Below, piece after piece: positions 7,080 to 57,259 of a stretch of 64,000 nt of DNA. A program made the position numbers and the translations under genes. Positions within the stretch are counted from its first letter, which is position 1. Every line of letters begins with the position of its first letter. Source of the stretch: Marinagarivorans sp. (GTDB lineage Bacteria > Pseudomonadota > Gammaproteobacteria > Pseudomonadales > Cellvibrionaceae); assembly GCA_046347475.1 (NCBI GenBank), contig JAXMGD010000003.1, forward strand, positions 453,242 through 517,241. Reading direction: 5' to 3'. The notes below the pieces were generated by a model that saw nothing but the letters and a program-made list of their open reading frames with translations, made no database searches and was not told where the DNA came from.

Positions 7080-8075
7080 GTTGAGGCGCTAAGGAATGAG
7101 GCGTTTGCAAACCTAAGGAAAGGGTTATTAGGGTTTAAGAGCCGGATAGAGTTACCAAGGAATAAGTTACCAAGGAGTAACCAAAAGGATTGTTTAAGGA
7201 GCGCGCTGGAGAGTAGCAAGGATCGGCACACGGGAGCGAACTAAAACAGGGAGCCGCTTTTGGGAGGATACAAGGATTTAATTGGGAGCCAGTAAAGGGA
7301 TTAACCCTGGGAGAGAAGAGGGAAGGGCTTAGCGGGGCTAAGCCTGTAACAGGAACACCCACAAGGACGCACGCACAGGAACACAGACAAAGGACTAGGG
7401 CATAAGGAGCACCTACTGTCGCAGGAGGAATAGGAAGGGAGTTGAATAAAGGATAAATACTGGGAGTACACAAAGGATCAAACTGAGAAGGCAATAGGGA
7501 CGGCGGTACACAACAGCATGGTAATGGACACAGCGCCCCTGGCGCAGTGCGTGGAAGGGAGCTGCGCATTAAGGAGCACGAGTAGGTGCAGTGAGGGCAT
7601 ACAAGGAGCCGAAACGGATGGGGGTTATGGATTGCTGCAGGATGAGAGCTGATGGAATGGGGTTTAAACGGAGTACCGAAGGATCAATCCTGTGGAAACA
7701 GGTTTAAGGACGCATGAGAAACCAAGGATACTCACTAAAGGAATGTCACCAAGGGACATTGATAGATGGAGCTGGCAGGAACCGCGTTGGAGTACGCAGC
7801 AAGCCTGAGGAGCGGGCTGCCGGTACAGATTGATTAGGGACCTTCGTGTATCAGGGACATACAGGTATCAGGGACATACAGGTATCAGGGACATAATAGG
7901 AGCCAGACAACAGGAAACTACGGGGCCCGCTAGGCTGTTTGCTTGCCGCAGCGGAACAATTTGGCACCTCTCCAACGGAATGGCCTATCAAGCAAACTCA
8001 TAAGCAAAATGGCGATACATGACTGATTCAATTCGGCTGGCCCTAAATACACAGTATTTGGGGCTTCGTTTTTTT
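7080..8075 (+). ncRNA. Candidate CsrB/RsmZ-family CsrA-sequestering sRNA (unusually long, GGA-motif-rich)
   Basis: No long ORF in any frame. Extreme purine bias on the + strand only. About 60 GGA motifs, many in AAGGA / CAAGGA(N) context. Tandem 15-bp units gttaccaaggaNtaa x2 (7150-7179) and 17-bp units gtatcagggacatacag x3 (7847-7897). Ends in a strong intrinsic terminator at 8040-8075. Confidence 0.45.
8040..8075 (+). terminator. Rho-independent terminator
   Basis: 11-bp stem gccctaaatac / gtatttggggc with loop aca, followed by ttcgttttttt. Confidence 0.75.
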
Positions 8076-9996: not shown

Positions 9997-11394
9997 ATGG
10001 CCAAACGCCGCGTACTGATAGTTGATGACTCCAAAACGGCCCAGGTACGCCTGCGCAAAATGCTTGAACGCTTCGATGTTGACGTTGATACGGTCAATTC
10101 GGCTGAAGAAGCCCTGGGGTATCTATCCTATCGTCAACCCAGCGTGATATTTCTGGATCACCACATGGAAGGCATGGATGGTTTGGCGGCGTTAAAAATT
10201 ATTAAAGCCAACCCCGGTACCGCGCTGATTCCGGTGATTATGTACACCTCCGAGCAGGGCGATGTGTATGTAGGCCAGGCGCGGGCCTTGGGGGCTTTGG
10301 ATATTATTTCCAAAGAAGTGATTAAACAGGTGGATTTAGAAAAGCTCATGGGCAGCTTGAATATCTACCTGATCGGCGCGGAGCCACCCGAGGATGAGCA
10401 GGCGCCCCACGCTACCACCCTCGATATAGTGGCTGACTTAGACGAGATGCCCATAGCGCCCGCCGCCAGCCTAGACGATTTACCCCCCGCCAATGATTTA
10501 GCCCGTGTGCAGTTACAAATTGGCCGCCTGTTTGAAATCCACATCGCCAAGGTGCGCCAGGAGATTGAAGACAGCACCAAGTTTTTGATGCGCAGGCTGT
10601 CTAAAGAAATTCAGGAGCGCGCGGCCAAACCCTATGTGCGCCCGGTTACTCCGGTGGCCAACCCTTCGAATGAGCCGCTGCCACCGATTGAGGTGGAAAC
10701 CGATAAAGAGCGCGGCATCTCCACCTTTATCCTCGCCTTGGTGCTGCTGGGTGTGGCGTTTTTGGGGTATCACCTCTACATCAACAATGCGCATTTGCAG
10801 ATGATTGCTGAGAAATACGATGTGTTACAGCAGCAAAACGCCAAGCAAGAAGCCCTCATTAACCGCTTGTTTGAACAGAGTGTGCGCGCCAAAAGCGACC
10901 CAGAATTAGACACTAATATGATGTTGGAAACTCTCAGCTGGGCCTCCAACATGAATAACCAAGTGGCGTTTGGCGAGCAGGCGCTTAACGACCAGCGCAT
11001 TTACCCGGTGGGGGAATTGGTCGGCGTGTTAAAAGCTGCTAATTTTGCGGGCACTGTGTATTTGGATATTCACCTGGGTAACTTCTGCGTGGTGGAAGAC
11101 CCCAGCGGGCGTTACATCTTGCCCGAGCCTGAGAGCAATATTGAAGACTGTGTGTTCCTGGCGGACAAACAACCGCAAGTGCCCCTGGATAGCCATATAT
11201 CGGTGGGATTTTTAAATTATGTTCACTCGGCGCCGGTGCTGACAGAAGGGCCGATTGAGCTGGAGTTCTCCATGCAGGGCTACAGCCAACCTAAGGCCAG
11301 TTACCCGCCTAAAACCTCCGGCACCAGCGCGGGGGATTGGAATGAAGCGGCGCGTAAGAATAATCGGGTGAGTTTTTCTTTTGCGCGCAAATAA
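9997..11394 (+). CDS. Response-regulator receiver protein with a predicted TM helix and an uncharacterised C-terminal domain
   Basis: N-terminal REC domain (RVLIVDDSKTAQ, phospho-acceptor Asp region IFLDHHM). One hydrophobic helix (ISTFILALVLLGVAFLGYHLYI). About 200 aa C-terminal region with no recognisable fold. Confidence 0.7.
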   Translation: MAKRRVLIVDDSKTAQVRLRKMLERFDVDVDTVNSAEEALGYLSYRQPSVIFLDHHMEGMDGLAALKIIKANPGTALIPVIMYTSEQGDVYVGQARALGALDIISKEVIKQVDLEKLMGSLNIYLIGAEPPEDEQAPHATTLDIVADLDEMPIAPAASLDDLPPANDLARVQLQIGRLFEIHIAKVRQEIEDSTKFLMRRLSKEIQERAAKPYVRPVTPVANPSNEPLPPIEVETDKERGISTFILALVLLGVAFLGYHLYINNAHLQMIAEKYDVLQQQNAKQEALINRLFEQSVRAKSDPELDTNMMLETLSWASNMNNQVAFGEQALNDQRIYPVGELVGVLKAANFAGTVYLDIHLGNFCVVEDPSGRYILPEPESNIEDCVFLADKQPQVPLDSHISVGFLNYVHSAPVLTEGPIELEFSMQGYSQPKASYPPKTSGTSAGDWNEAARKNNRVSFSFARK

Positions 11395-11599
11395 GCTTCT
11401 TTAGCCTCATCCGTATTGCGGGCGCGAGATGCGCTACGCAATGCGGTTGGGTTTTTCACCCTCCTACGCCCTCGCACCAATTTTCCTCCTCAATTAGCTG
11501 CTGCTCTAATACAGCCCTTGCTAGGCGCTTTGTCTTTCTTTATCTGTCTCGCGTAGGCGTATAGAAAAAGTAAGCCACTATGAGTAATTACTTCGCGGT

Positions 11600-11710
11600 G
11601 CAGCAGTAATGGATGCAGATTATTTCAGACCGTCAAAAAGAGGGACCTTTTTGACGAGCCTACACGGATGTATTCACGGCGTGTCTGAAATAATCTGCAT
11701 TCATTGCTGC
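11600..11710. repeat. Structured intergenic repeat, family A copy 1 (nested hairpins)
   Basis: Outer 30-bp inverted repeat gcagcagtaatggatgcagattatttcagac / gtctgaaataatctgcattcattgctgc. Inner hairpin cgtcaaaaag-agggacc-tttttgacg. Second copy at 56131-56232. Confidence 0.7.
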
Positions 11711-11789
11711 GGGTGAGATTTAAAGGATTCGTGGCACTCAAGCCCCTCCCGATTGTTTTCAGCCTGGGCTTGGGTTCCCAGGTCGCCCT

Positions 11790-11870
11790 GCCTCGATTTC
11801 ACTCCCGGTAGAAATTCTACCTCCCCCATCCTCGGGGTCGTTCTGCATCCATGCCGTCGTCCGCTTTTTT
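11790..11870. repeat. Intergenic repeat, family C copy 1
   Basis: cctcgatttcactcccggtagaaattctacctcccccatcctcggggtcgttctgcatccatgccgtcgtcc. About 85% identical to 37960-38045 and more diverged at 27125-27250. Confidence 0.6.
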
Positions 11871-11921
11871 TGCCAAATTCGCCTCGCCAGCACTTCGCCG
11901 CCTAGTTTTTTCAGGGCTTCC

Positions 11922-13412
11922 CTAAGCCTCCCGGCGCCAAAACTCCTCCTGCCGTGGCAGGGTTTGCACCATGGTGTCTATGGCTGCCGCTGTTTTGGAC
12001 AATTCCTGATGCAAAAGCGCCGCCGATAGATGTGCAACCTTAGGTGAGAGATGGCGTGGCCTTATGCCCATGCCTTCAAAAATAGCCAGCCAACTGCTGG
12101 GGCGAAATAGGTCATCGCTGCGCTCATCCATTAACCCTTGGGCGGTAAATAAGTCGATGCGCTCTTGCAGGCTGTCGCTGATGGGCAGGCTCTGGCAGTG
12201 GCGCCAAAAAGCGCTGTCTTGGCGCTGGCTTTTTACATAATGCAGCTGCACAAAATCCCGCACCTCGGCAAAGTCTTTATTCATGCGCAGGTTGTAGGCC
12301 CGCGCCAGGCTCGGGTCGCATTGTTTGTGGGGTAAAAAACGCAGGAAAAAATCCAACCCGCGGGTAATTAAATGAATGGCGGTGGCTTCCAACGGCTCGA
12401 TAAAGCCTGCGGCCAGGCCCAAGGCCAGGCAGTTGTGCTGCCAGAACACTTGCCGGTGGCCGGTGGCAAAGGGCAGCACACGGGCCTGTTGCTCATCAAG
12501 GGGCAGCTGCGCTGAGCTGCATAACTCCTGCAGGGCTTTGTCGTCGCTGATGAAATCGCTGGAGTACACATAACCCATGCCTGTGCGTGAGCGCAGGGGA
12601 ATGGCCCAGCGCCAACCGGCTAAGGAGGCTTTGGCTTGGGTGTACAGGTGCGGGCGTGTTTGCGCGGGGGCGCGCAGGGCTAAGGCACGGTTACAGGGTA
12701 AAAAGCGCGACCAGTCGCACAGGGGCACTTTGAGAATCTGCCCGAACAAGAGGCTGTGAAAGCCGCTGCAATCGATAAAAAAATCGGCCCGGTGTTCGCT
12801 GCCATCTTCCAATAACAGGGCTTGCACAAACCCGCTGTCATCTTGCCGGGCGCCTACGACCCTGGCTGCTTGGGCGCTAAACGGGCGGTTCGCGCAGCGC
12901 TGCTTTAAGGCGGTCACTAGGCGCTCGGCATCCACATGCAGAGCGTAGTTGGCGCCGCCGATGGGGGTGTGTTGAGCCAGTTGGGGCGGGAAAAATCGCG
13001 CGTGCTGTGCCATCACCTGGCAGGGCGAAAACGCTTCCAGCGGCGCCACCGGGCCGTGTTCCTGGGCTTTTAACCAGCAGGGGTAAAAGTCCTGGCGCAA
13101 GATTTTGGCGCCGGTGCTGCCAAAGGGGTGAAAAAACCGCGAGTGTTTAACTCGCCAATCCACAAACTCGATGCCTAATTTGTAGGTGGCATCGGTCTGC
13201 TGCATAAATTGGGTTTCATCCAGCCCAAGGGATTTAATTAGGCCTACAAAAGGCGGCACGGTGGACTCCCCTAGGCCAATAGTGCCTATGTCGGGGGATT
13301 CAATTAAATGTATATGGCACTGCTCGCCGATCTCTTGGCTGAGAATGGCGGCGGCCAGCCAGCCTGCGGTGCCGCCGCCGAGAATAGTGATGGAGGTTAG
13401 GGGTTGCGACAT
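11922..13412 (-). CDS. Flavin-dependent tryptophan-halogenase-family protein
   Basis: N-terminal FAD motif ILGGGTAGW and the halogenase signature GWRWAIPL (WxWxIP). 496 aa. Confidence 0.75.
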   Translation of the reverse strand: MSQPLTSITILGGGTAGWLAAAILSQEIGEQCHIHLIESPDIGTIGLGESTVPPFVGLIKSLGLDETQFMQQTDATYKLGIEFVDWRVKHSRFFHPFGSTGAKILRQDFYPCWLKAQEHGPVAPLEAFSPCQVMAQHARFFPPQLAQHTPIGGANYALHVDAERLVTALKQRCANRPFSAQAARVVGARQDDSGFVQALLLEDGSEHRADFFIDCSGFHSLLFGQILKVPLCDWSRFLPCNRALALRAPAQTRPHLYTQAKASLAGWRWAIPLRSRTGMGYVYSSDFISDDKALQELCSSAQLPLDEQQARVLPFATGHRQVFWQHNCLALGLAAGFIEPLEATAIHLITRGLDFFLRFLPHKQCDPSLARAYNLRMNKDFAEVRDFVQLHYVKSQRQDSAFWRHCQSLPISDSLQERIDLFTAQGLMDERSDDLFRPSSWLAIFEGMGIRPRHLSPKVAHLSAALLHQELSKTAAAIDTMVQTLPRQEEFWRREA

Positions 13413-14972: not shown

Positions 14973-16202
14973 TTATTTATCTGGCGAGAGCGGAATATCC
15001 ACTGAGCCATCCAGCATTTTCTTCGGCCCATCGGCATTGGGCTTAATATCAAAGGCAAAAATATCCGTCGGCAGCCAGAGCGTTGCACAGGCATTGGGAA
15101 TATCCACCACGCCGCTAATATGCCCCTGCACCGGTGCCGTGCCTAAAATGGCATAGGCCTGTGCTTTGGAATATCCAAATTTGGTCATGTATTCAATGGC
15201 ATTTAAACAGGCTTGGCGGTAGGCGATGTGTACATCCAAATAATGTTGCTTGCCTTTTTCATCCACCGAAATACCTTCAAAAATCAAATAATCATCGTAT
15301 TTGGGGGTGATGGGGCTGGGTTTAAATACGGGGTTTTTAATGCCGTATTTTTTCACGCCATCTTTAATTAAATTTACCCGCAGGTGAATCCAACCGGCCA
15401 TTTCAATGGCGCCGCAAAAAGTGATTTCGCCATCGCCCTGGCTAAAATGTAAATCGCCCACGGATAGGCCGCCGCCTTTTACATACACAGGGAAATACAC
15501 CTTAGCGCCGCGCGATAAGTCTTTAATATCGCAATTGCCGCCGTGCTCCCGCGGCGGCACAGTGCGGGCGCCTTCGGCCGCCGCTGCTTTGGCGGCATCA
15601 CCTTTTAATTTACCCATATGGGCGGTTTCGGCATAGGGCAGGGCAGCCAGGGGCGGTGTGCGTTCAGGCTCGGTATCAAACAGGGCTTTTTCCCGCGCGT
15701 TCCACTCAGCCAACATTTCTTTCGACGGCAGGCAGCCGATTAAACCTGGGTGAATTAAACCGGCAAATTCCACCCCTGGCACATGACGGGAGCTGGTAAA
15801 CATGCCGTTAAAATCCCAAATGGATTTTTGCGCTTCAGGAAAATGTTCGGTTAAAAAGCCGCCGCCATTTTTCTTGGAGAAAAAACCGTTAAAACCCCAG
15901 AGGCTATTGGAAAACGCCCCTATATCTAAAATATCCACCACCAATAAATCGCCGGGCTCAGCGCCTTCAACCCCCACCGGGCCGGTGAGAAAGTGCACCT
16001 GGCTTAGGTCTACATCGCGCACATCATCGGCGTTGTCATTGTTAGCGATCTGCCCGCCGGTCCAGTCGTAACACTCCAAAATAAAATCATCGCCGGGTTT
16101 TACCATGGCGGCCATGGGAATATCCGGGTGCCAGCGGTTGTGAATGCCTTCGTTATCATAGGGTGAAGTGGATAAATCAACTTTTATTAGTGTTTCTGTC
16201 AT
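14973..16202 (-). CDS. fmdA: Formamidase/acetamidase (FmdA_AmdA family)
   Basis: 409 aa, matching the size and motifs of FmdA/AmdA amidohydrolases. Sits in an operon with urt-like ABC genes and fmdB. Confidence 0.75.
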   Translation of the reverse strand: MTETLIKVDLSTSPYDNEGIHNRWHPDIPMAAMVKPGDDFILECYDWTGGQIANNDNADDVRDVDLSQVHFLTGPVGVEGAEPGDLLVVDILDIGAFSNSLWGFNGFFSKKNGGGFLTEHFPEAQKSIWDFNGMFTSSRHVPGVEFAGLIHPGLIGCLPSKEMLAEWNAREKALFDTEPERTPPLAALPYAETAHMGKLKGDAAKAAAAEGARTVPPREHGGNCDIKDLSRGAKVYFPVYVKGGGLSVGDLHFSQGDGEITFCGAIEMAGWIHLRVNLIKDGVKKYGIKNPVFKPSPITPKYDDYLIFEGISVDEKGKQHYLDVHIAYRQACLNAIEYMTKFGYSKAQAYAILGTAPVQGHISGVVDIPNACATLWLPTDIFAFDIKPNADGPKKMLDGSVDIPLSPDK

Positions 16203-16245
16203 AACAAAACCCTCTGGGTTGGCGGGAATTTACTGTGTGTCTAAA

Positions 16246-16935
16246 TTAAACAGAAAGATAAGAAGCGATTTGCGCCTCGTTCACTTCGCTGCGCAATTGG
16301 TTTTTAACAATAATGCCTTTTTCCATCACTAAAATGCGATCGGCAATGTCTAAGGCAAAACTCAACACCTGTTCAGAGACCAAAATAGAAATACCTTTTT
16401 GATCGCGAATTTTTTTGAGGGTGTTGCCCATGTCCTTAATAATATTGGGCTGAATGCCCTCGGTGGGTTCATCCAAAATTAATACCTTGGGCTCGGTGGC
16501 GAGCGCCCGGGCTATGGCCAATTGTTGTTGCTGGCCACCGGATAAATTACCGCCCCGGCGCGCTTTCATCTCCTCCAAAACGGGAAACATCTCGTAAAGG
16601 TATTTGGGGATGCTCGTATTGCGGCCAGTGGCAAGGCCAGTTTGAATATTTTCTTGCACCGTCATGGTGGAAAAAATCATCCGCCCTTGGGGCACAAACG
16701 CAATGCCTGCACCTATGCGCTCATAACTTTTTAATTTAGAGACATTTAAACCATCTAAAATAATCTGCCCGGCTTTATGGGCGATCATGCCCACCAAGGA
16801 TTTCATCAGGGTGGTTTTGCCCATGCCATTGCGGCCCACCACGGCGACAATTTCATTTTTGCCTACAGAAAAATCAATGCCGTGGATCACTTCACTTTGG
16901 CCGTAGCTGACGGTGTAATCGCTGAGACTTAACAT
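16246..16935 (-). CDS. urtE: Urea/short-chain-amide ABC transporter ATPase (UrtE-like)
   Basis: Walker A GRNGMGKTT and ABC signature LSGGQQQ. 229 aa. Last gene of a five-gene ABC cluster. Confidence 0.75.
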   Translation of the reverse strand: MLSLSDYTVSYGQSEVIHGIDFSVGKNEIVAVVGRNGMGKTTLMKSLVGMIAHKAGQIILDGLNVSKLKSYERIGAGIAFVPQGRMIFSTMTVQENIQTGLATGRNTSIPKYLYEMFPVLEEMKARRGGNLSGGQQQQLAIARALATEPKVLILDEPTEGIQPNIIKDMGNTLKKIRDQKGISILVSEQVLSFALDIADRILVMEKGIIVKNQLRSEVNEAQIASYLSV

Positions 16936-16945
16936 AGAGTTCCCC

Positions 16946-17692
16946 TTAGTGACCGAGATAAACTTCTTTGACTTTTGGATCGTTTTTCACTTTCTCCATA
17001 GAGCCTTCAGAGAGCACCTTACCCTGGTGCATCACGGTGACTCGGTCGGCTATATCCTCCACAAATTGCATATCGTGCTCTACCACTAAAACCGAATGGT
17101 TTTTGGTAATGCGGTGTAATAACTCAGCGGTTTGTTTGCGCTCGGCGATGGACATGCCCGCCACCGGCTCATCGAGCATGAGCAGTTTAGGTTTTTGAAT
17201 TAATAACATGCCAATTTCCAACCACTGTTTTTGGCCGTGACTTAACAAACCCGCGGTTTTATACAGGCTATCCTGCAAAAAAATCATCGCGGCGGTTTCT
17301 TCTACACTTTGAATCACCTCCGCATCGCGTTTAAACGCCAGGGCGCCAAACACACTGTGGCCGCGCGGGAAGGAAATTTCTAAGTTTTCAAACACGGTTA
17401 AATCATCGTAAATAGACGGGTTTTGAAATTTGCGCCCCACCCCTGCATGCACTATGGCGTGCTCGCGCAGGCGGGTAAGTTCCTTGCCTCTAAATTTAAT
17501 GGAGCCGGAGGAGGCGCGGGTTTTACCGCAAATTAAATCCAGCACAGTGGTTTTACCTGCGCCATTCGGGCCAATAATCACGCGGATTTCGCCTTCATCT
17601 ACATAAAGGGATAAATCATTGACCGCTTTAAACCCGTCGAAGGAAACCGTCAGGCCTTCAATACTCAACAAAAAATCTTGGCTCATATTCAA
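16946..17692 (-). CDS. urtD: Urea/short-chain-amide ABC transporter ATPase (UrtD-like)
   Basis: Walker A GPNGAGKTT and signature LSHGQKQ. 248 aa. Confidence 0.75.
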   Translation of the reverse strand: MNMSQDFLLSIEGLTVSFDGFKAVNDLSLYVDEGEIRVIIGPNGAGKTTVLDLICGKTRASSGSIKFRGKELTRLREHAIVHAGVGRKFQNPSIYDDLTVFENLEISFPRGHSVFGALAFKRDAEVIQSVEETAAMIFLQDSLYKTAGLLSHGQKQWLEIGMLLIQKPKLLMLDEPVAGMSIAERKQTAELLHRITKNHSVLVVEHDMQFVEDIADRVTVMHQGKVLSEGSMEKVKNDPKVKEVYLGH

Positions 17693-17697
17693 GTCTC

Positions 17698-18852
17698 CTA
17701 GTGGGCGCTGGTGATAACAGGTTTAGTGGCTTTTGGCTTGCCCAGTTGCCCTAAAACGCCTGCCAGTTTTGGCGCTGCATAGGTTTGGTAAATACCGGCT
17801 AAACCATTGGGAAAGGCCATCACCACCGCAATAAACAAAGCGCCCATGGCGAATAACCACAGCTCAGGGAAGGATTCGGAAAAGGCGGTTTTAGAAAAAT
17901 TAATTAATAAGGTGCCGTATACAGCGCCTAAAATAGATAACCTGCCGCCTACGGCGCAGAAAATAACCATTTCAATGGAGGGCACTATGCCCACAAACGA
18001 AGGCGACATAAAACCCACTTGCAAGGTAAACATGGCGCCGCCTATAGCCGAAAATGTGGCCGCCAGGCAGAAAATAAATATTTTAAAGCTGGACACGTCA
18101 TAGCCGGAAAACCGCACCCTATCTTCCCGCTCGCGCATGGCCACCAATAAACGGCCGAATTTACTGGTGCGCACCCACTGAGCCGCTAGCAGGCAAAGTA
18201 TTAACAGCCCGGCGTTGACGAAATAAAGAATATTTTTAGCGCTATCCGTGCGTATATCCCAGCCTAAAAAAGTGCGTAAATCAGTAATGCCATTGACGCC
18301 GCCGGTATAACCCTGCTGGCCAATAATTAAAATGGTTAAAATAGAGGCGACCGCTTGGGTAATAATCGCGAAATAAACACCGCCCACGCGGCGCTTAAAC
18401 ATGGCCACACCAATAATATACGCAAATAAAGCGGGCAAAAATAATACGGCTAAGAGTGTAAAGGGTAGGCTGTGGAAGGGCTCCCAAAAAGCCGGTAAGG
18501 CGGTAATTTGGTTCCAGTCCATAAAGTCTGGAATGCCAGGCGTAGATTGAATTTTGGTGCTTTCAGGGTCAGAGGATTCGAGTTTTAAAAACATCGCCAT
18601 GCAGTAGCCGCCGATGCCAAAAAATACCCCTTGCCCCAGGCTTAAAATACCGCCATAACCCCAACATAAAACCAAACCCACCGCCACAAACGCGTAGGTT
18701 AGGTATTTACCCACCATGTTCAGACGGAAGGCATCTAAAAATAAGGGAAAAACAACTAATAAAATAACCGCTAACACCAAAAAGCCAATAAGGTCATTTT
18801 TGGGCATAAATGAACTAGTACTTGATGACAACATAAACCACCCCGTGTGCAA
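17698..18852 (-). CDS. urtC: ABC transporter permease (UrtC-like, branched-chain-amino-acid permease family)
   Basis: 384 aa polytopic membrane protein of the LivM/UrtC type. Confidence 0.7.
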   Translation of the reverse strand: MHTGWFMLSSSTSSFMPKNDLIGFLVLAVILLVVFPLFLDAFRLNMVGKYLTYAFVAVGLVLCWGYGGILSLGQGVFFGIGGYCMAMFLKLESSDPESTKIQSTPGIPDFMDWNQITALPAFWEPFHSLPFTLLAVLFLPALFAYIIGVAMFKRRVGGVYFAIITQAVASILTILIIGQQGYTGGVNGITDLRTFLGWDIRTDSAKNILYFVNAGLLILCLLAAQWVRTSKFGRLLVAMREREDRVRFSGYDVSSFKIFIFCLAATFSAIGGAMFTLQVGFMSPSFVGIVPSIEMVIFCAVGGRLSILGAVYGTLLINFSKTAFSESFPELWLFAMGALFIAVVMAFPNGLAGIYQTYAAPKLAGVLGQLGKPKATKPVITSAH

Positions 18853-27299: not shown

Positions 27300-27445
27300 G
27301 CCCTTAACCTAAGAAGCGGCTGATTAATTTCAGGTTTTGCCTTTTTTCAATGCGCCCGGCTGTCTCCCTGTAGCGCAGGTAAGGGCTCCATGCCCGCGGC
27401 GGTTTTAAAAAAAAGGAAAAACCCGTAATTACTAAGTAGGTCCGT
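27300..27445. repeat. Palindromic intergenic repeat, family B copy 1 (inverted orientation)
   Basis: Reverse complement matches the 37664-37790 and 53603-53745 copies (ttttgcctttttcaaaa...cgcgggcatggagccc...ctacaggga...gaaaaaaggcaaaacc). Confidence 0.7.
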
Positions 27446-27817
27446 TCAACTGCGCGCTGGCTATTAATAATCAGTACCCTAATTAACACGGTCAAATCCT
27501 TAACCGAAATGGGCAGCTTATTTTCTGCAGCATCGCTCGATTTCTCCTGTGTTTGTCCTGTTGTTTTCCTTGGCGAATCCTATGATGTCCTGGTTATTTC
27601 CTTGGCTGATGGCATCCGTTCATGTGGCCTTATTGGCGCGCGACGGTTTGGGCCGCGGGGGCTGCCATCCCTGCAGGCTAGCGTCCTTGCCTACTGGAGG
27701 TAAGAATAGAGCCCTCGGCTGCGGCCGTCTGTGCGAAAAATTGCCCGCCCCAGGTGATAAATTCACCAAGGGCACAGGGCAGGGTGGCAGGCTCGCTTTT
27801 TTAAAGCCTTATTTTGC

Positions 27818-29419
27818 CTACTGGGTTTTTAGGCTAGAGAGGATCTGTCCAAAACCTAAGCCGAACTTGGCCAGATATTGTTTAAGCCGGTGGCTATCGT
27901 TACTGGAGGCTTTTTGCGTGCGGCTGGCGTTAAATAATGTGCGGCCGGCTTGCGCGAGGCTCACACTGCTTAAACATACTTCCACTACGGCATTTAATTG
28001 CAAGCGGTCAAATAAATCCATGGCGGCGAGGGTTTCATCATCGAGTAAATTTTTTAGATGATCCCTGTGGGAGGGCTGGTTTTGAAAACCACTCCAAGCC
28101 TGTTTTAGGCGGCTAATTTCACCGCTGACTATGTCCTCGCTAATTCGCCCGCCGCTGGCTAAGGTGGCCATGCGCGTAATGCTGGAGTTTAAATCGCGAA
28201 AATTTGCTCGCCACAGAGCTTCAGGCGAGTTGGCAAACTGTAAATACAGGCTGCGGGCTGCGCGATTAAAACTAACTTTGTACCCGGCCGCTTGGGTAAA
28301 TTTAGCCAGTTCATGCTCTAAGTTGGGTTCTAAATCTTCGATGCGCTCTTTTAACGAGGGCAGCCTGTAGGTCCATAAATTAATGCGGGCTAATAAATCT
28401 TCGCGAAATAATCCGTGCCGCACCTGTTCAAATAAATCCCGGTGGGTGCCAGCAATCAGTTGAAAATTGCTGTGTACGGCTTTATCGCTGCCAAGGGGTA
28501 TAAAGGTTTTTTCTTCCACGGCCCGCAATAACATGGCCTGTTCATCAAGGCCCAACTCGGCGATTTCATCGAGAAATAACAAGCCTTTGTCCGCTTCCCG
28601 CAACAGGCCGCTGCGAGCGTTCGCAGCTCCGGTAAAAGCGCCTTTTACATGGCCGAAGAGAGCGCTCATGGCGTTATCACCCCGCAGGGTAGCGCAGTTC
28701 ACCTCAATTAAAGGGCCGCTTAATTGGCCGCGCTGGTGTTTTAATTCATAAATGCGCCGCGCCAATTGGGATTTGCCCGCGCCCGTGGGGCCATTTAATA
28801 AAATCGGCGCGCGGGATTTTATGGACACCTGCTCAATTTGTGCGATAAGCGCATTAAATTCAGCGTTGCGGGTGTGAATACCATTTTTTAAATGGGTGAG
28901 GGCGTCTTGAGTTTCTTTGGCAAAGCGCGAGGCGATTTGATCATAGCGGGAGAGATCCAAATCGATAATCTGGTAGCTGCCTTGGGTGCCTTCTTTACTG
29001 GGCGAAGCCTGAATTAATTTACCCGGCAGGTAATGCGCTTCGGTTAATAAATACAAACAAATTTGTACCACATGGGTACCGGTAGTGATGTTAATAAAAT
29101 ACTGGTTGCGCTCCACATCAAACGCATAGTTGCGGGCTACATCGTGCAGGGCGCCGTACACCTGCTCAAAATCCCATGCATCGGCCACGTCTATAGGCAC
29201 GGCTGTTACCTGGGTGTTGGGCGCAACGCTTGCCATATCCGCAAGGGTTACGCGCAGCAGGGCCTCATCCCCCGGCATATACAGCAACAGATATTCACTA
29301 ATTATCAGCTGCGGGTGCATAAGTAGGGCGAGGCTCGGCCGCCAGCGATCCCAGCGTTTTTTACCCAGCCCACCGTGGTCCAGGCGAGAGCCTAGAATGC
29401 CAATCAATACATTATTCAT
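27818..29419 (-). CDS. rtcR: RtcR, sigma-54-dependent transcriptional activator with N-terminal CARF domain
   Basis: N-terminus MNNVLIGILGSRLDHGGLGKKRWDRWRPSLALL matches the RtcR CARF domain. AAA+ sigma-54 interaction domain (GPTGAGKS, GAFTGA). Divergent from rtcB. Confidence 0.85.
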   Translation of the reverse strand: MNNVLIGILGSRLDHGGLGKKRWDRWRPSLALLMHPQLIISEYLLLYMPGDEALLRVTLADMASVAPNTQVTAVPIDVADAWDFEQVYGALHDVARNYAFDVERNQYFINITTGTHVVQICLYLLTEAHYLPGKLIQASPSKEGTQGSYQIIDLDLSRYDQIASRFAKETQDALTHLKNGIHTRNAEFNALIAQIEQVSIKSRAPILLNGPTGAGKSQLARRIYELKHQRGQLSGPLIEVNCATLRGDNAMSALFGHVKGAFTGAANARSGLLREADKGLLFLDEIAELGLDEQAMLLRAVEEKTFIPLGSDKAVHSNFQLIAGTHRDLFEQVRHGLFREDLLARINLWTYRLPSLKERIEDLEPNLEHELAKFTQAAGYKVSFNRAARSLYLQFANSPEALWRANFRDLNSSITRMATLASGGRISEDIVSGEISRLKQAWSGFQNQPSHRDHLKNLLDDETLAAMDLFDRLQLNAVVEVCLSSVSLAQAGRTLFNASRTQKASSNDSHRLKQYLAKFGLGFGQILSSLKTQ

Positions 29420-31050: not shown

Positions 31051-31112
31051 GCCCCCGTAGCTCAGTCTGGTAGAGCACATTGAGGTCGCAGGTTCGAATC
31101 CTGTCGGGGGCG
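31051..31112 (+). ncRNA. tRNA-like element lacking an anticodon arm (candidate Y RNA-type tRNA mimic)
   Basis: Acceptor GCCCCCG/CGGGGGC, D-arm GCTC-AGTCTGGTA-GAGC, then only CATTG where the 17-nt anticodon arm should be. Variable loop AGGTC, T-arm GCAGG-TTCGAAT-CCTGT. 62 nt. Lies 165 nt downstream of rtcB on the same strand. Confidence 0.5.
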
Positions 31113-31113
31113 C

Positions 31114-31187
31114 AATGCTATAGCTCATCCTGGTAGAGCATCTCACTCATAATGAGACGGTAGCCGGTTCGAATCCGACTAGCAATT
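31114..31187 (+). tRNA. tRNA-Met(CAT)-like gene, possibly degenerate; directly abuts the preceding tRNA-like element
   Basis: Clover-leaf with anticodon stem TCTCA/TGAGA and loop CTCATAA, D-arm GCTC-ATCCTGGTA-GAGC, T-loop TTCGAAT. One mismatch each in the acceptor (A2-A71) and T stems. No encoded CCA. Only 1 nt separates it from the upstream element. Confidence 0.5.
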
Positions 31188-37663: not shown

Positions 37664-37790
37664 TTAAGGAACCTCTGATGAATTCCGGGGTTTGCCTTTT
37701 TCAAAACCGGCGCGGGCATGGAGCCCTTGCCTGAGCTACAGGGAGGTACTCGGGCGCTTTTGAAAAAGGCAAAACCTGGAATTAATGAGA
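37664..37790. repeat. Palindromic intergenic repeat, family B copy 2
   Basis: ggaacctctgatgaattccggggtttgcctttttcaaaaccggcgcgggcatggagccc...gcgcttttgaaaaaggcaaaacctggaattaatgagag. Internal dyad symmetry. Confidence 0.7.
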
Positions 37791-37904
37791 GCTTACTTAA
37801 AAAAGCCATCACGGCCGTTCACCCTGAGGTGTTGAACCCGCCTTCAACAAGCTGCTAACGGGTATCGGCGTAAGGCTGGGGAGGCGGGAGGCTGGGGGGC
37901 AATG

Positions 37905-38178
37905 TCATTAAGTTAAGCCAAGCCCCCTCACCCTAGCCCTCTCGGTAACCGCTCCTGGCGTGACTCTACCTCGATTTCATTCCCGATGAAATTCTACCTC
38001 CCCCGTCCTTGGGGTCGTCCTGCATCCGTGCAGTCGTCCCAAAGGGAGAGGGGACAGTGTGTGCTAACCCTGGAGGGCTTGCTTTTAGCTCCCTCTCCCT
38101 CTGGGAGAGGGTTGGGGTGAGGGTAAGACAGGGAGCGTGAAACAGGCCCAAATCCTTAACTTAATGACATTGGACTGG
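37905..38178. repeat. About 270-bp composite palindromic element containing family C copy 2 (37960-38045)
   Basis: Perfect outer inverted repeat caatgtcattaagttaag / cttaacttaatgacattg. Inner ccccctcaccct / agggtgagggg-like arms. The minus-strand ORFs called here are artefacts. Confidence 0.65.
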
Positions 38179-47988: not shown

Positions 47989-49251
47989 CTAATTCCAAAA
48001 CTGCTGAGCTTGTCGCCCCAATTTCTGCTGGCCAGTGGTGTTGGCGTGGCAGGTGTCGGTGCGATCTGAGCTAGTTAAAGGCCCAAAAGCACCTGGATAC
48101 ACCACATTTAAACTGGTATCAGCCGCCGCTTGTTTAGCCATGCTGTCGGTTTTTTCCGGGCCGCCGGCACCGGCTAAATCACAGGTTAAACCCGACGCAT
48201 ACAGGGGCTGGCCAGTAATATAGATCTTGGCGCCGGGTGCCGCGTGGGAGCGAGCATTGGTGATGAGTTTTTTCACTTCATCGTAGGTCACGCCGTTTTG
48301 GGCAAAAATACAAATCATGATCCACACCTCTGAAGGCTTACCGAATTTGGCCACTTGCTGATCAAATTTGCCCCAGGCGGCTGAGGTATTGCTGGTCCAG
48401 TTTTGCACTACATCACCATTAGTGCCATAGGGCGCCCACATCTTTTTGCCGCCCACGGCGCGATACCCAGTTGCGGTATTTTCAGCCATAGAACAGCCAA
48501 TAAATCCCATAGTATCGTTGCCACCGGTTGTTGGCGGAGGCGGTGGTGGCGTAGTGGTGGTATCTAATTTTCCGTCAGCAGAATAAATGCTGAAGCCGCT
48601 AATAGTGGCGTTATCAACTAGGCTTTCTAACGCAATAGTAAGTTTACCGTCGGTGACACGCACATTTTTAACTTCATAAGAATAAGCACCGTTGCGACCG
48701 GCCAATGTATATAAATCCACGTTGGCTAATTCCGTTTTGCCTTCCACTGCAACGTTAAATGAGCGCTTGCCCGCCGAGGTTTGATAAATTTCGGCAAACT
48801 GTAACCGCACGCGATAGGTGCCTGTGGTAACCGGCACATCGTAGGAAAAAGTGCCGTAGCGTTCGGTTTGATACACGGCCGTTTCACTGCCGCCGGTAAT
48901 CGATTCTGTTGTACTGCTGGTATTACCGCCGGAGAAATATTGGTCGGCAAGATAATTTATATCCCCATAGGTTTGCGCTGTGCCGCCGGCATTTATGGCT
49001 ACAACTAATTTTTCATTGGTGTTAGCGCCGCTGGACGAACTGGATGAAGAGCTCGACGACGAGCTAGAAGAGCTAGTAGAACTCGAGGAGCTAGAAGAGC
49101 TGGATGACGATGAGCTAGACGAGGACGAGCTTGATGAAGAGCTGGAGCTAGACGAGCTTTGGCCGCCGCAGCCGCTTATGAGGGAGGCTACAACCATCAA
49201 CCAACCACACGCCAAGCGATGGGACAGCCAGGGAGATATCTGCGTATTCAT
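47989..49251 (-). CDS. Lipoprotein with poly-Ser linker, malectin-like carbohydrate-binding domain, and an uncharacterised C-terminal domain
   Basis: Lipobox LISGCGG. Malectin signature YRVRLQFAEIY...KRSFNVAVEG. T/P-rich second linker (TTTPPPPPPTTGG). Confidence 0.7.
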   Translation of the reverse strand: MNTQISPWLSHRLACGWLMVVASLISGCGGQSSSSSSSSSSSSSSSSSSSSSSSSSSSTSSSSSSSSSSSSSSSGANTNEKLVVAINAGGTAQTYGDINYLADQYFSGGNTSSTTESITGGSETAVYQTERYGTFSYDVPVTTGTYRVRLQFAEIYQTSAGKRSFNVAVEGKTELANVDLYTLAGRNGAYSYEVKNVRVTDGKLTIALESLVDNATISGFSIYSADGKLDTTTTPPPPPPTTGGNDTMGFIGCSMAENTATGYRAVGGKKMWAPYGTNGDVVQNWTSNTSAAWGKFDQQVAKFGKPSEVWIMICIFAQNGVTYDEVKKLITNARSHAAPGAKIYITGQPLYASGLTCDLAGAGGPEKTDSMAKQAAADTSLNVVYPGAFGPLTSSDRTDTCHANTTGQQKLGRQAQQFWN

Positions 49252-53602: not shown

Positions 53603-53745
53603 TAAGGAACCTCTAATTAATTCTAGTTTTTGCCTTTTTTCAAAACTGTCGCGGGCATGGAGCCCGCGCCGGAGCTACAGGGATGTGCTCGGGCAGTTTT
53701 GAAAAAAGGCAAAAGCCAGAATTAATCAGAGCCTCCCTAACAGCT
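53603..53745. repeat. Palindromic intergenic repeat, family B copy 3
   Basis: ggaacctctaattaattctagtttttgccttttttcaaaactgtcgcgggcatggagcccgcgccggagctacaggga...ttttgaaaaaaggcaaaagccagaattaatcagag. Confidence 0.7.
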
Positions 53746-56095: not shown

Positions 56096-56130
56096 TTCTA
56101 AGGGTGCACTGATTACTGGCTGTACGGAAG

Positions 56131-56232
56131 CGATGAATACACATCGTTTCGGACCGTCAAAAAGAGAGACTTTTTTGACGCGCCTACAAGGATGTATTTA
56201 CGGCGTGTCAGAAATGATGTGTATTCATTGCC
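56131..56232. repeat. Structured repeat, family A copy 2
   Basis: gaatacacatcgtttcggac / gtcagaaatgatgtgtattc outer stem around a conserved core cgtcaaaaagagagacttttttgacg...ggatgtatttacggcgtgtc. Confidence 0.7.
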
Positions 56233-56241
56233 GGTGCCTAG

Positions 56242-56350
56242 GTAGGAATTCCATTTCAAAATCGCCCGAGTAGCACCCTCGCGGGCTCCATGCCCGCGAG
56301 GGTTTTGAAAAAAGGCAAAGCCAGGAATTAACAGAGGTTCCCTAAGGCAT
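56242..56350. repeat. Family B repeat, partial copy 4, fused to family A copy 2
   Basis: gcgggctccatgcccgcgagggttttgaaaaaaggcaaagccaggaattaacagaggttcc. Confidence 0.6.
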
Positions 56351-57259
56351 TGCCGAGAAATGACGTCGCTTTCGCTGGCGTCGTTCAAGTGTGCACACAA
56401 TATCTTTTTAATCAGCAAATGCTGCGAGTATTGGCGAGGCTCGCGACGGCTTAGGCCGTGGCGCCAAAACCGCTAGTAAAAAACGGGTTAATATCGGTGT
56501 GCCGAGTAAAAATCCAGTTCTATATAGCCAGTGTATTTGGCTCTTCCATTATTGTGCTATGCGCTTAGGGTATTAACCGGGCAGTTTTAATGCGGCGACA
56601 CAATAACTCAGCGCGATCATTTTGTTCCCAGGTGAATAAGCTGCCTGCGCCATCAGCAGATTAATTTAACTAGACTATTATAAGAAGTAGCTAATAGTGT
56701 GACGCGTTTAGCTCTATTTTAATCGTGATTTATTCACTTATTACGGCGGTGAATTGCTATTAATTATATGGGCCTTTGGCTATAGCCGACTGCAACACGC
56801 TGCTAGACGAATTTAGGCTGGGTGCCCGGCAAAAAATAAGGCGCAGGGCTGCTTGGCTATGCCGCAGATGTAGGCTGGAATTCTGTGGGCCCTGCAAGAA
56901 TCACCGCCATCTGGGGATATTGCTGGAGCCTAGGGAATAGCTGGAGCGAATCTGCTAAGTCTCAATTGCACCAAGTCAGAATTCGGCAGTGAGTTTTTAA
57001 GCCTTGTAAGGCTAGGGGGTAGTGAAGGATGCCGGGCAACACAAACCCCACGCGGCTCGGGCAGTATTTTGCTGCTCAGGTGCTGTTTATTTTTAGCATC
57101 AGGGTTATGGGCCCCATTCATACAGGGCGGGAATTAATCAACGCATCGTGAAATCAGACTATTGCTTGTGTCCTTAAGGTGTGTGGCGCTTAAGCTTTTG
57201 GATGCAGCCTGCTGTTGTGGCTACTGGAATTATTATTTTCAAAAGGTGCGTGTAGCTTT

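What the first reader, a model, noticed from the sequence alone, without database searches (positions are those of the whole stretch)
11600..11870. Family A nested-hairpin repeat shows compensatory changes between copies
- Two copies (11600-11710 and 56131-56232) share a conserved core: an inner perfect hairpin cgtcaaaaag…ctttttgacg plus ggatgtatt.acggcgtgtc.
- The outer 20-30-bp arms differ in sequence between copies, yet remain almost perfectly self-complementary within each copy.
- Structure is preserved while sequence diverges. That suggests selection on an RNA or DNA secondary structure (REP-like element, sRNA, terminator or recombination site) rather than a simple MITE with fixed terminal repeats.
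- Both copies sit immediately 3' of genes, in terminator-like positions.
Basis: seen in the sequence. Interest (0 to 1): 0.55.

Follow-up and report, generated by a model that had tools for sequence, protein, structure and literature searches.

The report
YPAL-type hairpin repeat with twin GGA loops
The finding is real: it is one copy of a small, probably mobile hairpin-forming repeat found across many gammaproteobacteria, related to the Yersinia YPAL element and built like "TwoAYGGAY" RNAs, in which the stems change freely but stay paired around two conserved loops that look like binding sites for the regulator CsrA.

Summary
Both copies exist as described (11603-11710 and 56130-56231; full extents about 11587-11715 and 56112-56249). 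The compensatory pattern is real and general. An exact 19-base core motif occurs in at least 118 genome stretches across Gammaproteobacteria. Every copy has the same layout: a long basal stem of lineage-specific sequence, hairpin 1 with a variable stem and an A-N-GGA-Y loop, and hairpin 2 (UACA-NGGA-UGUA). In 64 aligned copies 93.9% of cells pair, against 35-43% when partners are slid. Arm mismatches are strand-biased (G·U 88, A·C 17), so the constraint acts on the motif strand as a single strand. The core is homologous to the Yersinia MITE YPAL/RU-2, whose antisense strand is Rfam Ysr224. The architecture and the divergent doublets (13 of 17 adjacent pairs) match the multi-copy TwoAYGGAY RNAs, already proposed to be Csr/Rsm binders that spread like mobile elements. 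The Rfam TwoAYGGAY model itself does not hit these copies. The element is not a terminator, has no promoter, and shows no orientation bias relative to neighbouring genes. Four more divergent relatives (family B) lie in the window. Verdict: a new member of a known kind, of moderate interest. CsrA binding and the means of mobilisation are inferred, not shown.

The parts
11587..11715 (+). Family A copy 1, full extent (the outer part begins with ATTACT; the 3' outer end is divergent or truncated)
   Evidence: Homology with copies in a Cellvibrionaceae MAG: L096 matches 11587-11707 and L098 matches 11573-11715. R1 covariance model: 98.1 bits at 11609-11704. Fold -60.6 kcal/mol, z = -7.4.
11603..11630 (+). 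Copy 1, 5' arm of the basal stem (ends with the conserved GAC, 11628-11630)
   Evidence: Inverted repeat I3: 28 nt, 93% complementary.
11631..11656 (+). Copy 1, hairpin 1: 10-bp stem CGTCAAAAAG/CTTTTTGACG with hexaloop AGGGAC (11641-11646)
   Evidence: The stem covaries across the family: 9 of 10 pairs show changes on both sides.
11658..11680 (+). Copy 1, hairpin 2: GCC-UACA-CGGA-UGUA-UUCAC-GGC. It contains ACACGGAUGU, which fits the CsrA SELEX consensus RUACARGGAUGU
   Evidence: The stem covaries from UACA/UGUA to CCCA/UGGG in copies not selected by the motif. Consensus taken from PMC4347634.
11683..11710 (+). Copy 1, 3' arm of the basal stem (begins with the conserved GTC)
   Evidence: I3.
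56112..56249 (+). Family A copy 2, full extent (ATTACT...AGGTAGGAAT). Arms 56130-56154 / 56207-56231; hairpin 1 56155-56180 (loop AGAGAC, one G·U pair); hairpin 2 56182-56204 (ACAAGGAUGU)
   Evidence: L096 1113-1249 matches 56112-56248 at 89%. R1: 86.9 bits. Inverted repeat I4. Fold z = -6.9.
53603..53739 (+). Family B copy: same architecture (about 44-bp basal stem, hairpin CGCGGGC-AUGGA-GCCCGCG, hairpin with UACAGGGAUGU)
   Evidence: R1: 49.7 bits, E = 2.4e-10. Inverted repeat I1. Fold -74.9 kcal/mol, z = -11.7.
37664..37800 (+). Family B copy
   Evidence: R1: 44.7 bits, E = 4.3e-9. Inverted repeat I2. Fold z = -6.5.
27309..27447 (-). Family B copy in the opposite orientation, more degenerate
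   Evidence: Direct-repeat families D4, D8 and D9. Sequence read. Weak fold, z = -1.8.
56250..56345 (-). Family B copy lacking hairpin 2, directly abutting family A copy 2
   Evidence: D4 and D9. Sequence read. Hairpin CCCUCGCGGGC-AUGGA-GCCCGCGAGGG.
11788..11862 (-). Family C repeat inside the finding's coordinates: two short GGA-loop hairpins (GC-AUGGAU-GC and CCCC-GAGGAU-GGGG) on the minus strand
   Evidence: D12: 90% identical to 37988-38039..
37966..38039 (-). Family C repeat, second copy (CUGC-ACGGAU-GCAG and CCCC-AAGGAC-GGGG)

Best explanation
The feature is one copy of a non-coding, multi-copy, probably mobile structured repeat that is widespread in Gammaproteobacteria. It is homologous to the Yersinia MITE YPAL/RU-2 and has the architecture of TwoAYGGAY RNAs. 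Each unit is a three-part fold on one specific strand: (1) a long basal stem (20-45 bp) whose sequence is free as long as it pairs, closed by a conserved GAC/GUC; (2) hairpin 1, with a free-sequence 10-bp stem and a C-[A-N-G-G-A-Y]-G hexaloop; (3) hairpin 2, GCC-UACA-NGGA-UGUA-AUUYAC-GGC, with the same C-ANGGAY-G loop. SHOWN: the fold, the covariation, the conservation of the two loops, the strand bias, the multi-copy dispersed distribution with divergent doublets, and the homology to YPAL. INFERRED: the unit spreads as a non-autonomous element recognised through its conserved core by a trans-acting factor. Because the core is nearly invariant across orders, that factor is probably a conserved host factor rather than a fast-evolving transposase. 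The arms co-vary because only copies that can form the single-stranded hairpin persist or propagate. When the motif strand is transcribed, the two ANGGAY hairpins, about 23 nt apart, should form a bipartite high-affinity site for a Csr/Rsm (CsrA/RsmA) dimer. Each sense-transcribed copy would then act as a small CsrA-binding module and a stable 3' hairpin on the neighbouring mRNA.
For: Taxa include Cellvibrio, Microbulbifer, Marinobacter, Stenotrophomonas, Thermomonas, Rheinheimera, Aeromonadaceae, Erwinia, Pantoea and Pseudomonas. Structure: 64 copies show 93.9% paired cells against 35-43% when partners are slid, and 796 double-change cells against 221 in shuffles. Hairpin 1 was not selected for pairing, yet 9 of its 10 pairs covary. 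Including 34 copies not selected by the motif, 37 of 39 pairs covary, and hairpin 2 switches from UA/AU to CG/CG in 8-10 copies. In those 34 copies the positions conserved at 90% or more are CA.GGA.G in both loops. Loop sequences are AGGGAU, AUGGAU, AGGGAC, ACGGAU and AAGGAU. Strand bias: arm mismatches are G·U 88 against A·C 17 (p = 1e-12) and G·A/G·G 62 against C·U/C·C 8. The + strand folds better than the - strand. YPAL homology: the published Y. pestis RU-2 sequence contains ...CGCGCC-AAGGAT-GGCGCG...GAGCCTACATGGATGTATTTACGGCGT (PMC2759123). Model R1 hits a Yersinia copy at 67 bits, and the same copy is Rfam Ysr224 at 133.9 bits. YPAL is reported to have target-site duplications, filled and empty sites, and co-transcription with upstream genes (PMC2229807). 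Mobility-like features seen here: identical 96-nt units at two unrelated loci of one Marinobacter MAG; presence versus absence at an orthologous intergenic site, L078 against L046; an assembly contig that breaks inside the element. TwoAYGGAY parallels: 13 divergent, 0 convergent and 4 same-orientation adjacent pairs, against 68% divergent doublets in Pseudomonas, where Csr/Rsm binding and mobile-like expansion have been proposed (bioRxiv 10.64898/2026.09.22.753630). CsrA consensus RUACARGGAUGU with GGA in a hairpin loop (PMC4347634). Families A, B and C in the same window share little beyond the GGA hairpins.
Against: No expression or binding data exist here. Orientation relative to flanking genes in co-directional contexts is 19 sense against 21 antisense (16 against 16 without doublets), by a crude ORF caller. 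That is not expected for a host-selected cis-acting RNA. There is no promoter-like or terminator-like site at the window copies. In some loci a terminator-like T-run precedes the element, so some copies may be barely transcribed. The only RNA on record for the family (Ysr224) is annotated on the opposite strand. Rfam's TwoAYGGAY model does not hit these copies. The G·T, G·A and G·G excess fits a single-stranded DNA hairpin as well as an RNA one. No mobilising enzyme was found, and no target-site duplications could be defined.
Confidence: 0.55

Rival explanations
1. A purely DNA-level selfish element. The hairpin matters only as single-stranded DNA during mobilisation, for example by an HUH/Y1-type or other structure-specific enzyme. 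The two ANGGAY loops are that enzyme's recognition sites. Arm complementarity is kept by DNA processes: template-switch correction of quasipalindromes, gene conversion between the inverted arms, or propagation only from intact master copies. There is no RNA function and no CsrA involvement.
For: There is no orientation bias relative to neighbouring genes. Copies are enriched between convergent genes (28) and depleted between divergent genes (9). In some loci copies sit after terminator-like T-runs. Doublets are head-to-head, as in REP dimers (PMC3733652). The mismatch spectrum (G·T, G·A and G·G far above A·C, C·T and C·C) follows the known order of mismatch stability in DNA (established thermodynamics). 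The core appears inverted relative to the outer asymmetric ends between two identical copies. Among compensated changes between nearest-neighbour copies, transversion pairs outnumber transition pairs 44 to 22. That is not the pattern expected from stepwise change through G·U intermediates. Hairpin 1 starts with CGTC, and the opposite strand carries GTAG next to it; both are REP-type tags.
Against: No transposase or RAYT gene lies between or beside copies in the loci inspected; the genes there are housekeeping genes. A core that is nearly invariant across orders is unusual for sites of lineage-specific transposases. The loops match the Csr/Rsm RNA consensus position by position. The 44:22 ratio is also what saturation alone would give.
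Confidence: 0.3
2. A host-selected cis-acting 3'-end element, acting as an mRNA stabiliser, RNase barrier or terminator, kept at each locus for the benefit of the upstream gene.
For: Both window copies lie just after stop codons and on the same strand as the upstream gene. The hairpins are very stable. YPAL is reported to be co-transcribed with upstream genes and possibly to affect their transcript stability (PMC2229807).
Against: No U-tract and no terminator-like site. Sense and antisense orientations are equally frequent. The same unit occurs next to unrelated genes. Conserved loop sequences are not needed for a simple stabilising hairpin.
Confidence: 0.07
3. Stand-alone small RNA genes, a dispersed family of Csr/Rsm sponge sRNAs each with its own promoter.
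For: Two GGA hairpins per unit. Divergent doublets could share a bidirectional promoter region. Ysr224 was catalogued as an sRNA.
Against: No conserved flanking sequence, promoter or terminator. The flanks are unrelated between copies. The window appears to hold a separate, much larger GGA-rich candidate sponge at about 7100-8075.
Confidence: 0.05

Closest known systems
YPAL / RU-2 (Yersinia palindromic sequences; De Gregorio et al. 2006 J Bacteriol 188:7876; Delihas 2007, PMC2759123)
   Same: It shares the core: hairpin with AAGGAU loop, then GAGCCTACATGGATGTATTTACGGCGT. It has long imperfect inverted arms and is multi-copy and intergenic. Model R1, built from non-Yersinia copies, hits a Yersinia copy at 67 bits.
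   Different: The window copies are 129-138 bp rather than 167-168 bp. Their arms are unrelated in sequence. The basal stem closes with GAC/GUC instead of the Yersinia GCGTC...GCGTC context. YPAL was described only in Yersinia and Pectobacterium; here the family spans many gammaproteobacterial orders. E. coli has none.
TwoAYGGAY RNA motif (Rfam RF01731; Weinberg et al. 2010, PMC2864571; Li et al. 2026 bioRxiv 10.64898/2026.09.22.753630)
   Same: Two sequential hairpins with A-Y/N-GGA-Y terminal loops on a common basal stem. Multi-copy with very variable copy number. Frequent divergent doublets. Proposed Csr/Rsm binding and mobile-element-like spread.
   Different: The RF01731 model does not hit any copy tested. 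Loop position 2 is G in about half of the copies. The upstream GMTBT 5-6-mer arrays of the Pseudomonas form are not enriched (1.6 against 1.3 background). That preprint does not mention YPAL or MITEs.
Rfam Ysr224 (RF02770, Yersinia sRNA 224)
   Same: It covers the reverse complement of the same core. A Yersinia YPAL copy scores 133.9 bits.
   Different: It lies on the strand opposite to the GGA motifs. The window copy scores only 12.9 bits against a gathering score of 70.
REP / REPIN elements (GTAG- and CGTC-tagged palindromes; PMC3733652)
   Same: Dispersed extragenic hairpins. Head-to-head dimers predominate. Single-strand hairpin logic. A CGTC tag at the foot of hairpin 1, and GTAG on the other strand.
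   Different: REPs are 20-40 bp, species-specific in sequence and linked to RAYT genes. Here a roughly 50-nt core is conserved across orders, the long arms vary, and no RAYT was seen nearby.
CsrB/RsmB/RsmX/Y/Z sponge sRNAs
   Same: GGA motifs presented in hairpin loops that fit the CsrA/RsmE consensus.
   Different: Only two sites per unit, no promoter or terminator of its own, and dispersed in many copies. There are no Rfam hits to those families.

Membership tests
YPAL / RU-2 MITE | Shares the family's conserved core sequence | tested here: met
   The published RU-2 sequence holds GAGCCTACATGGATGTATTTACGGCGT preceded by a GGA-loop hairpin. Model R1 hits Yersinia copy L119 at 67 bits, E = 1.7e-14. 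blastn finds only Yersinia among plasmids.
YPAL / RU-2 MITE | Unit length about 167-168 bp | tested here: not met
   Window copies are about 129 and 138 bp.
YPAL / RU-2 MITE | Multi-copy, dispersed, intergenic; folds into a long stable hairpin | tested here: met
YPAL / RU-2 MITE | Variable target-site duplications (3-26 bp); insertion at or next to dyad symmetry | tested here: inconclusive
   No direct repeats were recognisable at the ends of the copies inspected. One filled-versus-empty orthologous site was too diverged to show the junctions.
Rfam Ysr224 (RF02770) | Reaches the gathering score (70 bits) | tested here: not met
   12.9 bits, minus strand. Other non-Yersinia copies score 23-37 bits.
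TwoAYGGAY RNA (RF01731) | [quoted passage not shown] | tested here: met
TwoAYGGAY RNA (RF01731) | AYGGAY in both terminal loops | tested here: inconclusive
   The loops are A-N-GGA-Y. In hairpin 1 / hairpin 2, AUGGAU occurs in 14 / 17 of 64 copies and AGGGAU in 21 / 30; hairpin 2 also has ACGGAU in 8. Position 2 is often G rather than Y.
TwoAYGGAY RNA (RF01731) | Detected by the Rfam covariance model | tested here: not met
   No RF01731 match at the gathering score, at E<=10 on 11500-11900, at E<=5 on the whole window, or at E<=1 on 8 loci.
TwoAYGGAY RNA (RF01731) | Multi-copy with an excess of divergent doublets | tested here: met
   13 divergent, 0 convergent and 4 same-orientation adjacent pairs, with gaps of 53-226 nt.
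TwoAYGGAY RNA (Pseudomonas extended form) | Upstream arrays of GMTBT(T) 5-6-mers | tested here: not met
   1.6 motifs per 200 nt upstream against 1.3 background.
Csr/Rsm-binding RNA | GGA in a hairpin loop within a match to RUACARGGAUGU / CANGGANG | tested here: met
   Hairpin 2 reads (C)UACA-N-GGAUGU and hairpin 1 reads C-ANGGAY-G. These are the most conserved positions in copies not selected by the motif. Consensus.
Csr/Rsm-binding RNA | Physical binding by CsrA/RsmA and expression of the GGA strand | not testable with these tools
   Needs EMSA, CLIP or RNA-seq.
Intrinsic (Rho-independent) terminator | G+C-rich stem followed directly by a U-run | tested here: not met
   No terminator-like sites in 11300-12000 or 55900-56600. 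The 3' flanks read gggtgag and cggtgcc.
REP/REPIN-RAYT | Short (20-40 bp) GTAG- or CGTC-tagged palindrome linked to a RAYT gene | tested here: inconclusive
   CGTC lies at the foot of hairpin 1, and GTAG lies on the opposite strand. The units are much larger, and no transposase lies between or beside copies in the loci inspected. Genomes were not searched for RAYT genes.

The most novel reading that the evidence does not exclude
A mobile DNA element that carries a ready-made bipartite Csr/Rsm binding site. YPAL, the one member with published evidence of recent transposition, and the TwoAYGGAY-type repeats would then be one gammaproteobacteria-wide superfamily. It would scatter high-affinity CsrA sites through genomes, rewiring or buffering the Csr regulon, or would use the highly conserved CsrA as its host factor. 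That use of CsrA would explain a core that is nearly invariant across orders beside freely varying, perfectly paired arms.
Probability: 0.3. Interest if true: 0.65.

Novelty: new member of a known kind. Interest (0 to 1): 0.45.

Why it matters
It would tie together three records that the literature searched here keeps apart: a Yersinia MITE (YPAL/RU-2, 2006-07), a Yersinia "sRNA" in Rfam (Ysr224), and the TwoAYGGAY-type multi-copy RNAs. The first has reported evidence of transposition. The last has a proposed Csr/Rsm link. Together they would give a testable model in which mobile DNA distributes binding sites for a global post-transcriptional regulator. It is also a clear natural case of hairpin arms that are free in sequence but strictly paired on one strand, useful for asking whether such pairing is kept by selection or by templated correction. 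For annotation, these units break assemblies and can be miscalled as sRNAs or terminators.

Tried and rejected
1. Rfam at gathering score: only two tRNAs in the window. At E-value thresholds: only a weak antisense Ysr224 hit, with no TwoAYGGAY, CsrB or Rsm hits.
2. E. coli complete genomes: no copy. Plasmids: only Yersinia.
3. Terminator or promoter reading: rejected.
4. A transposase or RAYT gene between paired copies: L083 and L015 hold housekeeping genes. The genes next to the copies in L010 and L085 are frmB and adhC homologues.
5. Upstream GMTBT repeat arrays as in Pseudomonas TwoAYGGAY: not enriched.
6. Orientation bias relative to flanking genes: none, 19 against 21. The gene calls come from a crude longest-ORF method, so this result is soft.
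7. Target-site duplications: none recognisable.
8. Extending the source genome by protein look-up: only a 2.3-kb contig, which ends inside the element.
9. Separating stepwise compensation from templated arm copying using nearest-neighbour copies: 66 compensated against 39 one-sided changes, with transversion to transition pairs at 44:22. This equals the ratio expected at saturation and so does not decide.
10. The original YPAL paper (PMC1636318) is not held, so its content is cited second-hand from Delihas. A first DOI guess fetched an unrelated paper.
11. The G·U excess in hairpin 1 is weak (13 against 9 outside the conserved U position). The strand bias therefore rests mainly on the basal stem.

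Full report
OBSERVATION. Copy 1 has 28-nt arms at 11603-11630 / 11683-11710 (93% complementary). Copy 2 has 25-nt arms at 56130-56154 / 56207-56231 (88%). The copies are 81% identical over 113 nt. The inner-hairpin pattern and the motif GGATGTATTNACGGCGTGTC each occur exactly twice in the window, against 0.00 expected. Both copies fold far better than shuffled sequence (z = -9.6 and -8.4), and the + strand folds 5-6 kcal/mol better than the - strand. In the 22 arm pairs next to the core, five pairs differ between the copies. Three are fully compensated, including one G-C to C-G. One became G·T and one became G·A. Copy 2's inner hairpin carries one G·U pair, so it is not strictly perfect. Homology to copies from a Cellvibrionaceae MAG puts the full extents at about 11587-11715 and 56112-56249, with ATTACT...AGTAAT-like outer ends.

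THE FAMILY. The hits cover Cellvibrionales, Marinobacter, Alcanivorax, some Pseudomonas and Halopseudomonas, Xanthomonadales, Chromatiales, Rheinheimera and Arsukibacterium, Aeromonadales, Erwinia, Pantoea and others. Every copy has the same layout:
- a variable arm, then GAC;
- a variable 10-bp stem with loop A-N-GGA-Y;
- (A)GCCUACA-N-GGAUGUAUU-Y-ACGGCGU;
- GUC, then the complementary arm.
The arms are unrelated in sequence between genera yet often perfectly paired, for example 35 of 35, 33 of 33 and 42 of 43 positions.

COVARIATION. On a 64-copy alignment, 93.9% of cells form standard pairs, against 35-43% when partners are slid. There are 796 double-change cells against 221 in shuffles. The basal stem was partly pre-selected: only copies with an ungapped stem of at least 15 bp were used (77 of 111), further limited to canonical interior length. 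Hairpin 1 was not selected for pairing, and 9 of its 10 pairs still covary. A covariance model (R1) found 150 matches in 119 loci. Thirty-four of 77 re-aligned matches lack the exact search motif, so they are not biased by it. In those 34, the positions conserved at 90% or more are CA.GGA.G in both hairpin loops. Hairpin 2's stem switches from UACA/UGUA to CCCA/UGGG in 8-10 copies. The A-U pair next to loop 2 breaks without compensation in 12 copies. Both loops are therefore best read as hexaloops, C-[ANGGAY]-G.

STRAND. With symmetric scoring, arm mismatches are G·U 88, A·C 17 (binomial p = 1e-12), G·A/A·G 46, G·G 16, C·U 5 and C·C 3. The hairpin is therefore constrained on the motif-bearing strand as a single strand. 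This fits RNA (wobble pairs). It fits single-stranded DNA equally, where G-containing mismatches are the most stable by established thermodynamics. The bias is tied to the polarity of the core, because inverting the core would turn G·U into A·C.

WHAT IT IS RELATED TO. Three known records are relevant.
- The only Rfam hit is a weak antisense match to Ysr224. A Yersinia plasmid copy found by blastn scores 133.9 bits for Ysr224 and 67 bits for R1.
- The Y. pestis 168-nt RU-2 sequence printed by Delihas (PMC2759123) is the YPAL MITE of De Gregorio et al. 2006. It contains ...CGCGCC-AAGGAT-GGCGCG-GCTCGAGCCTACATGGATGTATTTACGGCGT.... The window family is thus a YPAL homologue. YPAL is reported to make 3-26-bp target duplications, to insert at or near dyad symmetry, to differ between Y. 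pestis and Y. pseudotuberculosis, and to be co-transcribed with upstream genes (PMC2229807). No other paper in the library holds the core 16-mers.
- A September 2026 preprint (10.64898/2026.09.22.753630) describes TwoAYGGAY RNAs as two sequential AYGGAY-loop hairpins on a basal stem. In Pseudomonas they are multi-copy (median 11-23 copies, up to 202), and 68% of doublets are divergent. The preprint notes that the loops have been proposed as Csr/Rsm binding sites and that the expansion looks like that of a mobile element. My loci show the same doublet bias: 13 divergent, 0 convergent and 4 same-orientation pairs, with gaps of 53-226 nt.
The architecture and behaviour are therefore those of TwoAYGGAY. 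However, Rfam's RF01731 model does not hit any copy tested, and the upstream GMTBT arrays of the Pseudomonas form are absent. That preprint does not mention YPAL or MITEs.

THE Csr/Rsm READING. Hairpin 2 reads (C)UACA-N-GGAUGU. The CsrA SELEX consensus is RUACARGGAUGU, with GGA in a hairpin loop (PMC4347634). Hairpin 1 presents C-ANGGAY-G. In copy 1 the two GGA triplets are about 23 nt apart. Families A, B and C in this window differ in almost everything except such hairpins. CANGGAYG is over-represented in the window, 21 matches against 12.3 expected. This evidence is in silico only.

AGAINST A HOST-SELECTED RNA ROLE.
- By a crude ORF caller, 28 intergenic copies lie between convergent genes, 9 between divergent genes and 40 between co-directional genes.
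- In the co-directional class, 19 are sense and 21 antisense (16 and 16 without doublets).
- No promoter-like or terminator-like site accompanies the window copies.
- In some loci a terminator-like T-run precedes the element.
- Ysr224 is annotated on the other strand.
These points favour a selfish element whose conserved core serves its own propagation.

MOBILITY-LIKE EVIDENCE SEEN HERE.
- Identical 96-nt units sit at two unrelated loci of one Marinobacter MAG. Their outer asymmetric ends appear swapped, so the core appears inverted relative to them.
- One orthologous intergenic site is filled in Microbulbifer (L078) and empty in Parahaliea (L046).
- Arsukibacterium and Rheinheimera carry copies at an orthologous site, in opposite orientations and with different arms.
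- A Saccharophagus MAG has a tandem array of four copies.
- An assembly contig ends inside copy 1.
- No transposase was seen between or beside copies.

HOW THE ARMS STAY PAIRED. In Microbulbifer the arms have conserved proximal and distal segments around a 7-8-bp box. The box differs completely between copies but is complementary on the two arms. Two copies in one MAG (L016 and L094) differ by three substitutions in that box, and all three are compensated. Across 17 independent nearest-neighbour pairs there are 66 compensated, 39 one-sided and 6 other changes. Among the compensated changes, transversion pairs outnumber transition pairs 44 to 22. That ratio is the one expected at saturation. 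It does not separate selection on a hairpin from templated correction between inverted repeats. This question is left open.

VERDICT. The element is a new, shorter, Cellvibrionaceae-type member of the YPAL superfamily with TwoAYGGAY architecture. It is not a terminator and not a simple fixed-TIR MITE. I consider identity with this superfamily about 0.9 likely, mobility about 0.75, and CsrA binding by sense transcripts about 0.4-0.5. The most useful new points are three: the link between YPAL, Ysr224 and TwoAYGGAY-type repeats; the breadth across gammaproteobacterial orders; and the strand-specific mismatch spectrum.

Noticed in passing
window 7100-8075 (+): An ORF-free stretch of about 0.9 kb with extreme GGA density: 19 GGA per 220 nt at 7261-7480 and 16 at 7601-7820, against a window mean of 2.8 (sd 2.3). 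The motifs are mostly CCAAGGA, ACAAGGA and ACAGGAA, plus three 17-nt tandem units AUCAGGGACAUACAGGU. It ends in a hairpin followed by a U-run near 8040-8075. It looks like a very large CsrB/RsmB-type CsrA sponge RNA. Rfam does not hit it at E<=5. No clear GacA/UvrY box was seen upstream.
   Followed up: partly
window 27490-27700 (-): A second, smaller GGA-rich stretch with about 10-11 GGA motifs (GCAAGGACGC, GCAGGGAUGGC, CCAAGGAAA, CAGGACA and others). It lies between ORF 27818-29419 (-) and a family B repeat, and ends near a weak terminator-like hairpin at 27506-27489.
   Followed up: partly
window 37664-37800, 53603-53739 (+); 27309-27447, 56250-56345 (-): Repeat family B has about 44-bp arms and the same two-GGA-hairpin core. 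The family A model detects it at 45-50 bits. One copy lacks hairpin 2 and abuts family A copy 2.
   Followed up: partly
window 11788-11862 and 37966-38039 (-): Repeat family C is a 75-nt unit, 90% identical between its two copies. It has two short GGA-loop hairpins (CUGC-ACGGAU-GCAG, CCCC-AAGGAC-GGGG) followed by GGUAGAAUUUCUACC. Each copy lies 80-170 nt downstream of a family A or B copy, on the opposite strand.
   Followed up: partly
L004 3112-3745 (Saccharophagus MAG): Four copies of the element lie head-to-tail with a period of about 180 nt, a tandem array rather than a doublet.
   Followed up: no
L013, L025, L028, L055, L082: Long variants of 145-148 nt. Hairpin 1 or the region after it carries extra nested hairpins, some with further GGA loops or an inverted AUCCAU copy.
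   Followed up: no
L010 6208-6303 and L085 5369-5633: In Microbulbifer rhizosphaerae and in Pseudomonas sp. MYb185, copies sit just downstream of the same gene pair, homologues of S-formylglutathione hydrolase and the glutathione-dependent formaldehyde dehydrogenase. This is either a shared hot spot or an old insertion.
   Followed up: partly
L006 4756-4853 (+) vs L044 7129-7226 (-): Arsukibacterium and Rheinheimera carry a copy at an orthologous site next to the same gene, but in opposite orientations and with unrelated arms.
   Followed up: no
window 31051-31187 (+): Two tRNA matches lie one base apart. The first spans only 62 nt, short for a tRNA.
   Followed up: no
window 47229-47437 and 49061-49141; 54128-54312: Coding-region tandem repeats: a 12-nt GAGCTGGAGCTG period, and the 21-nt period of a poly-Ser/Gly-Lys linker in ORF 54017-56095. 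The linker is typical of Cellvibrionaceae secreted proteins. Window 16009-18019 is syntenic with a Cellvibrio MAG (L081) at 68-78% identity.
   Followed up: no
L119 1127-1410 (-): On the Yersinia similis plasmid, the YPAL copy lies next to a ryfA RNA match of 179.5 bits.
   Followed up: no
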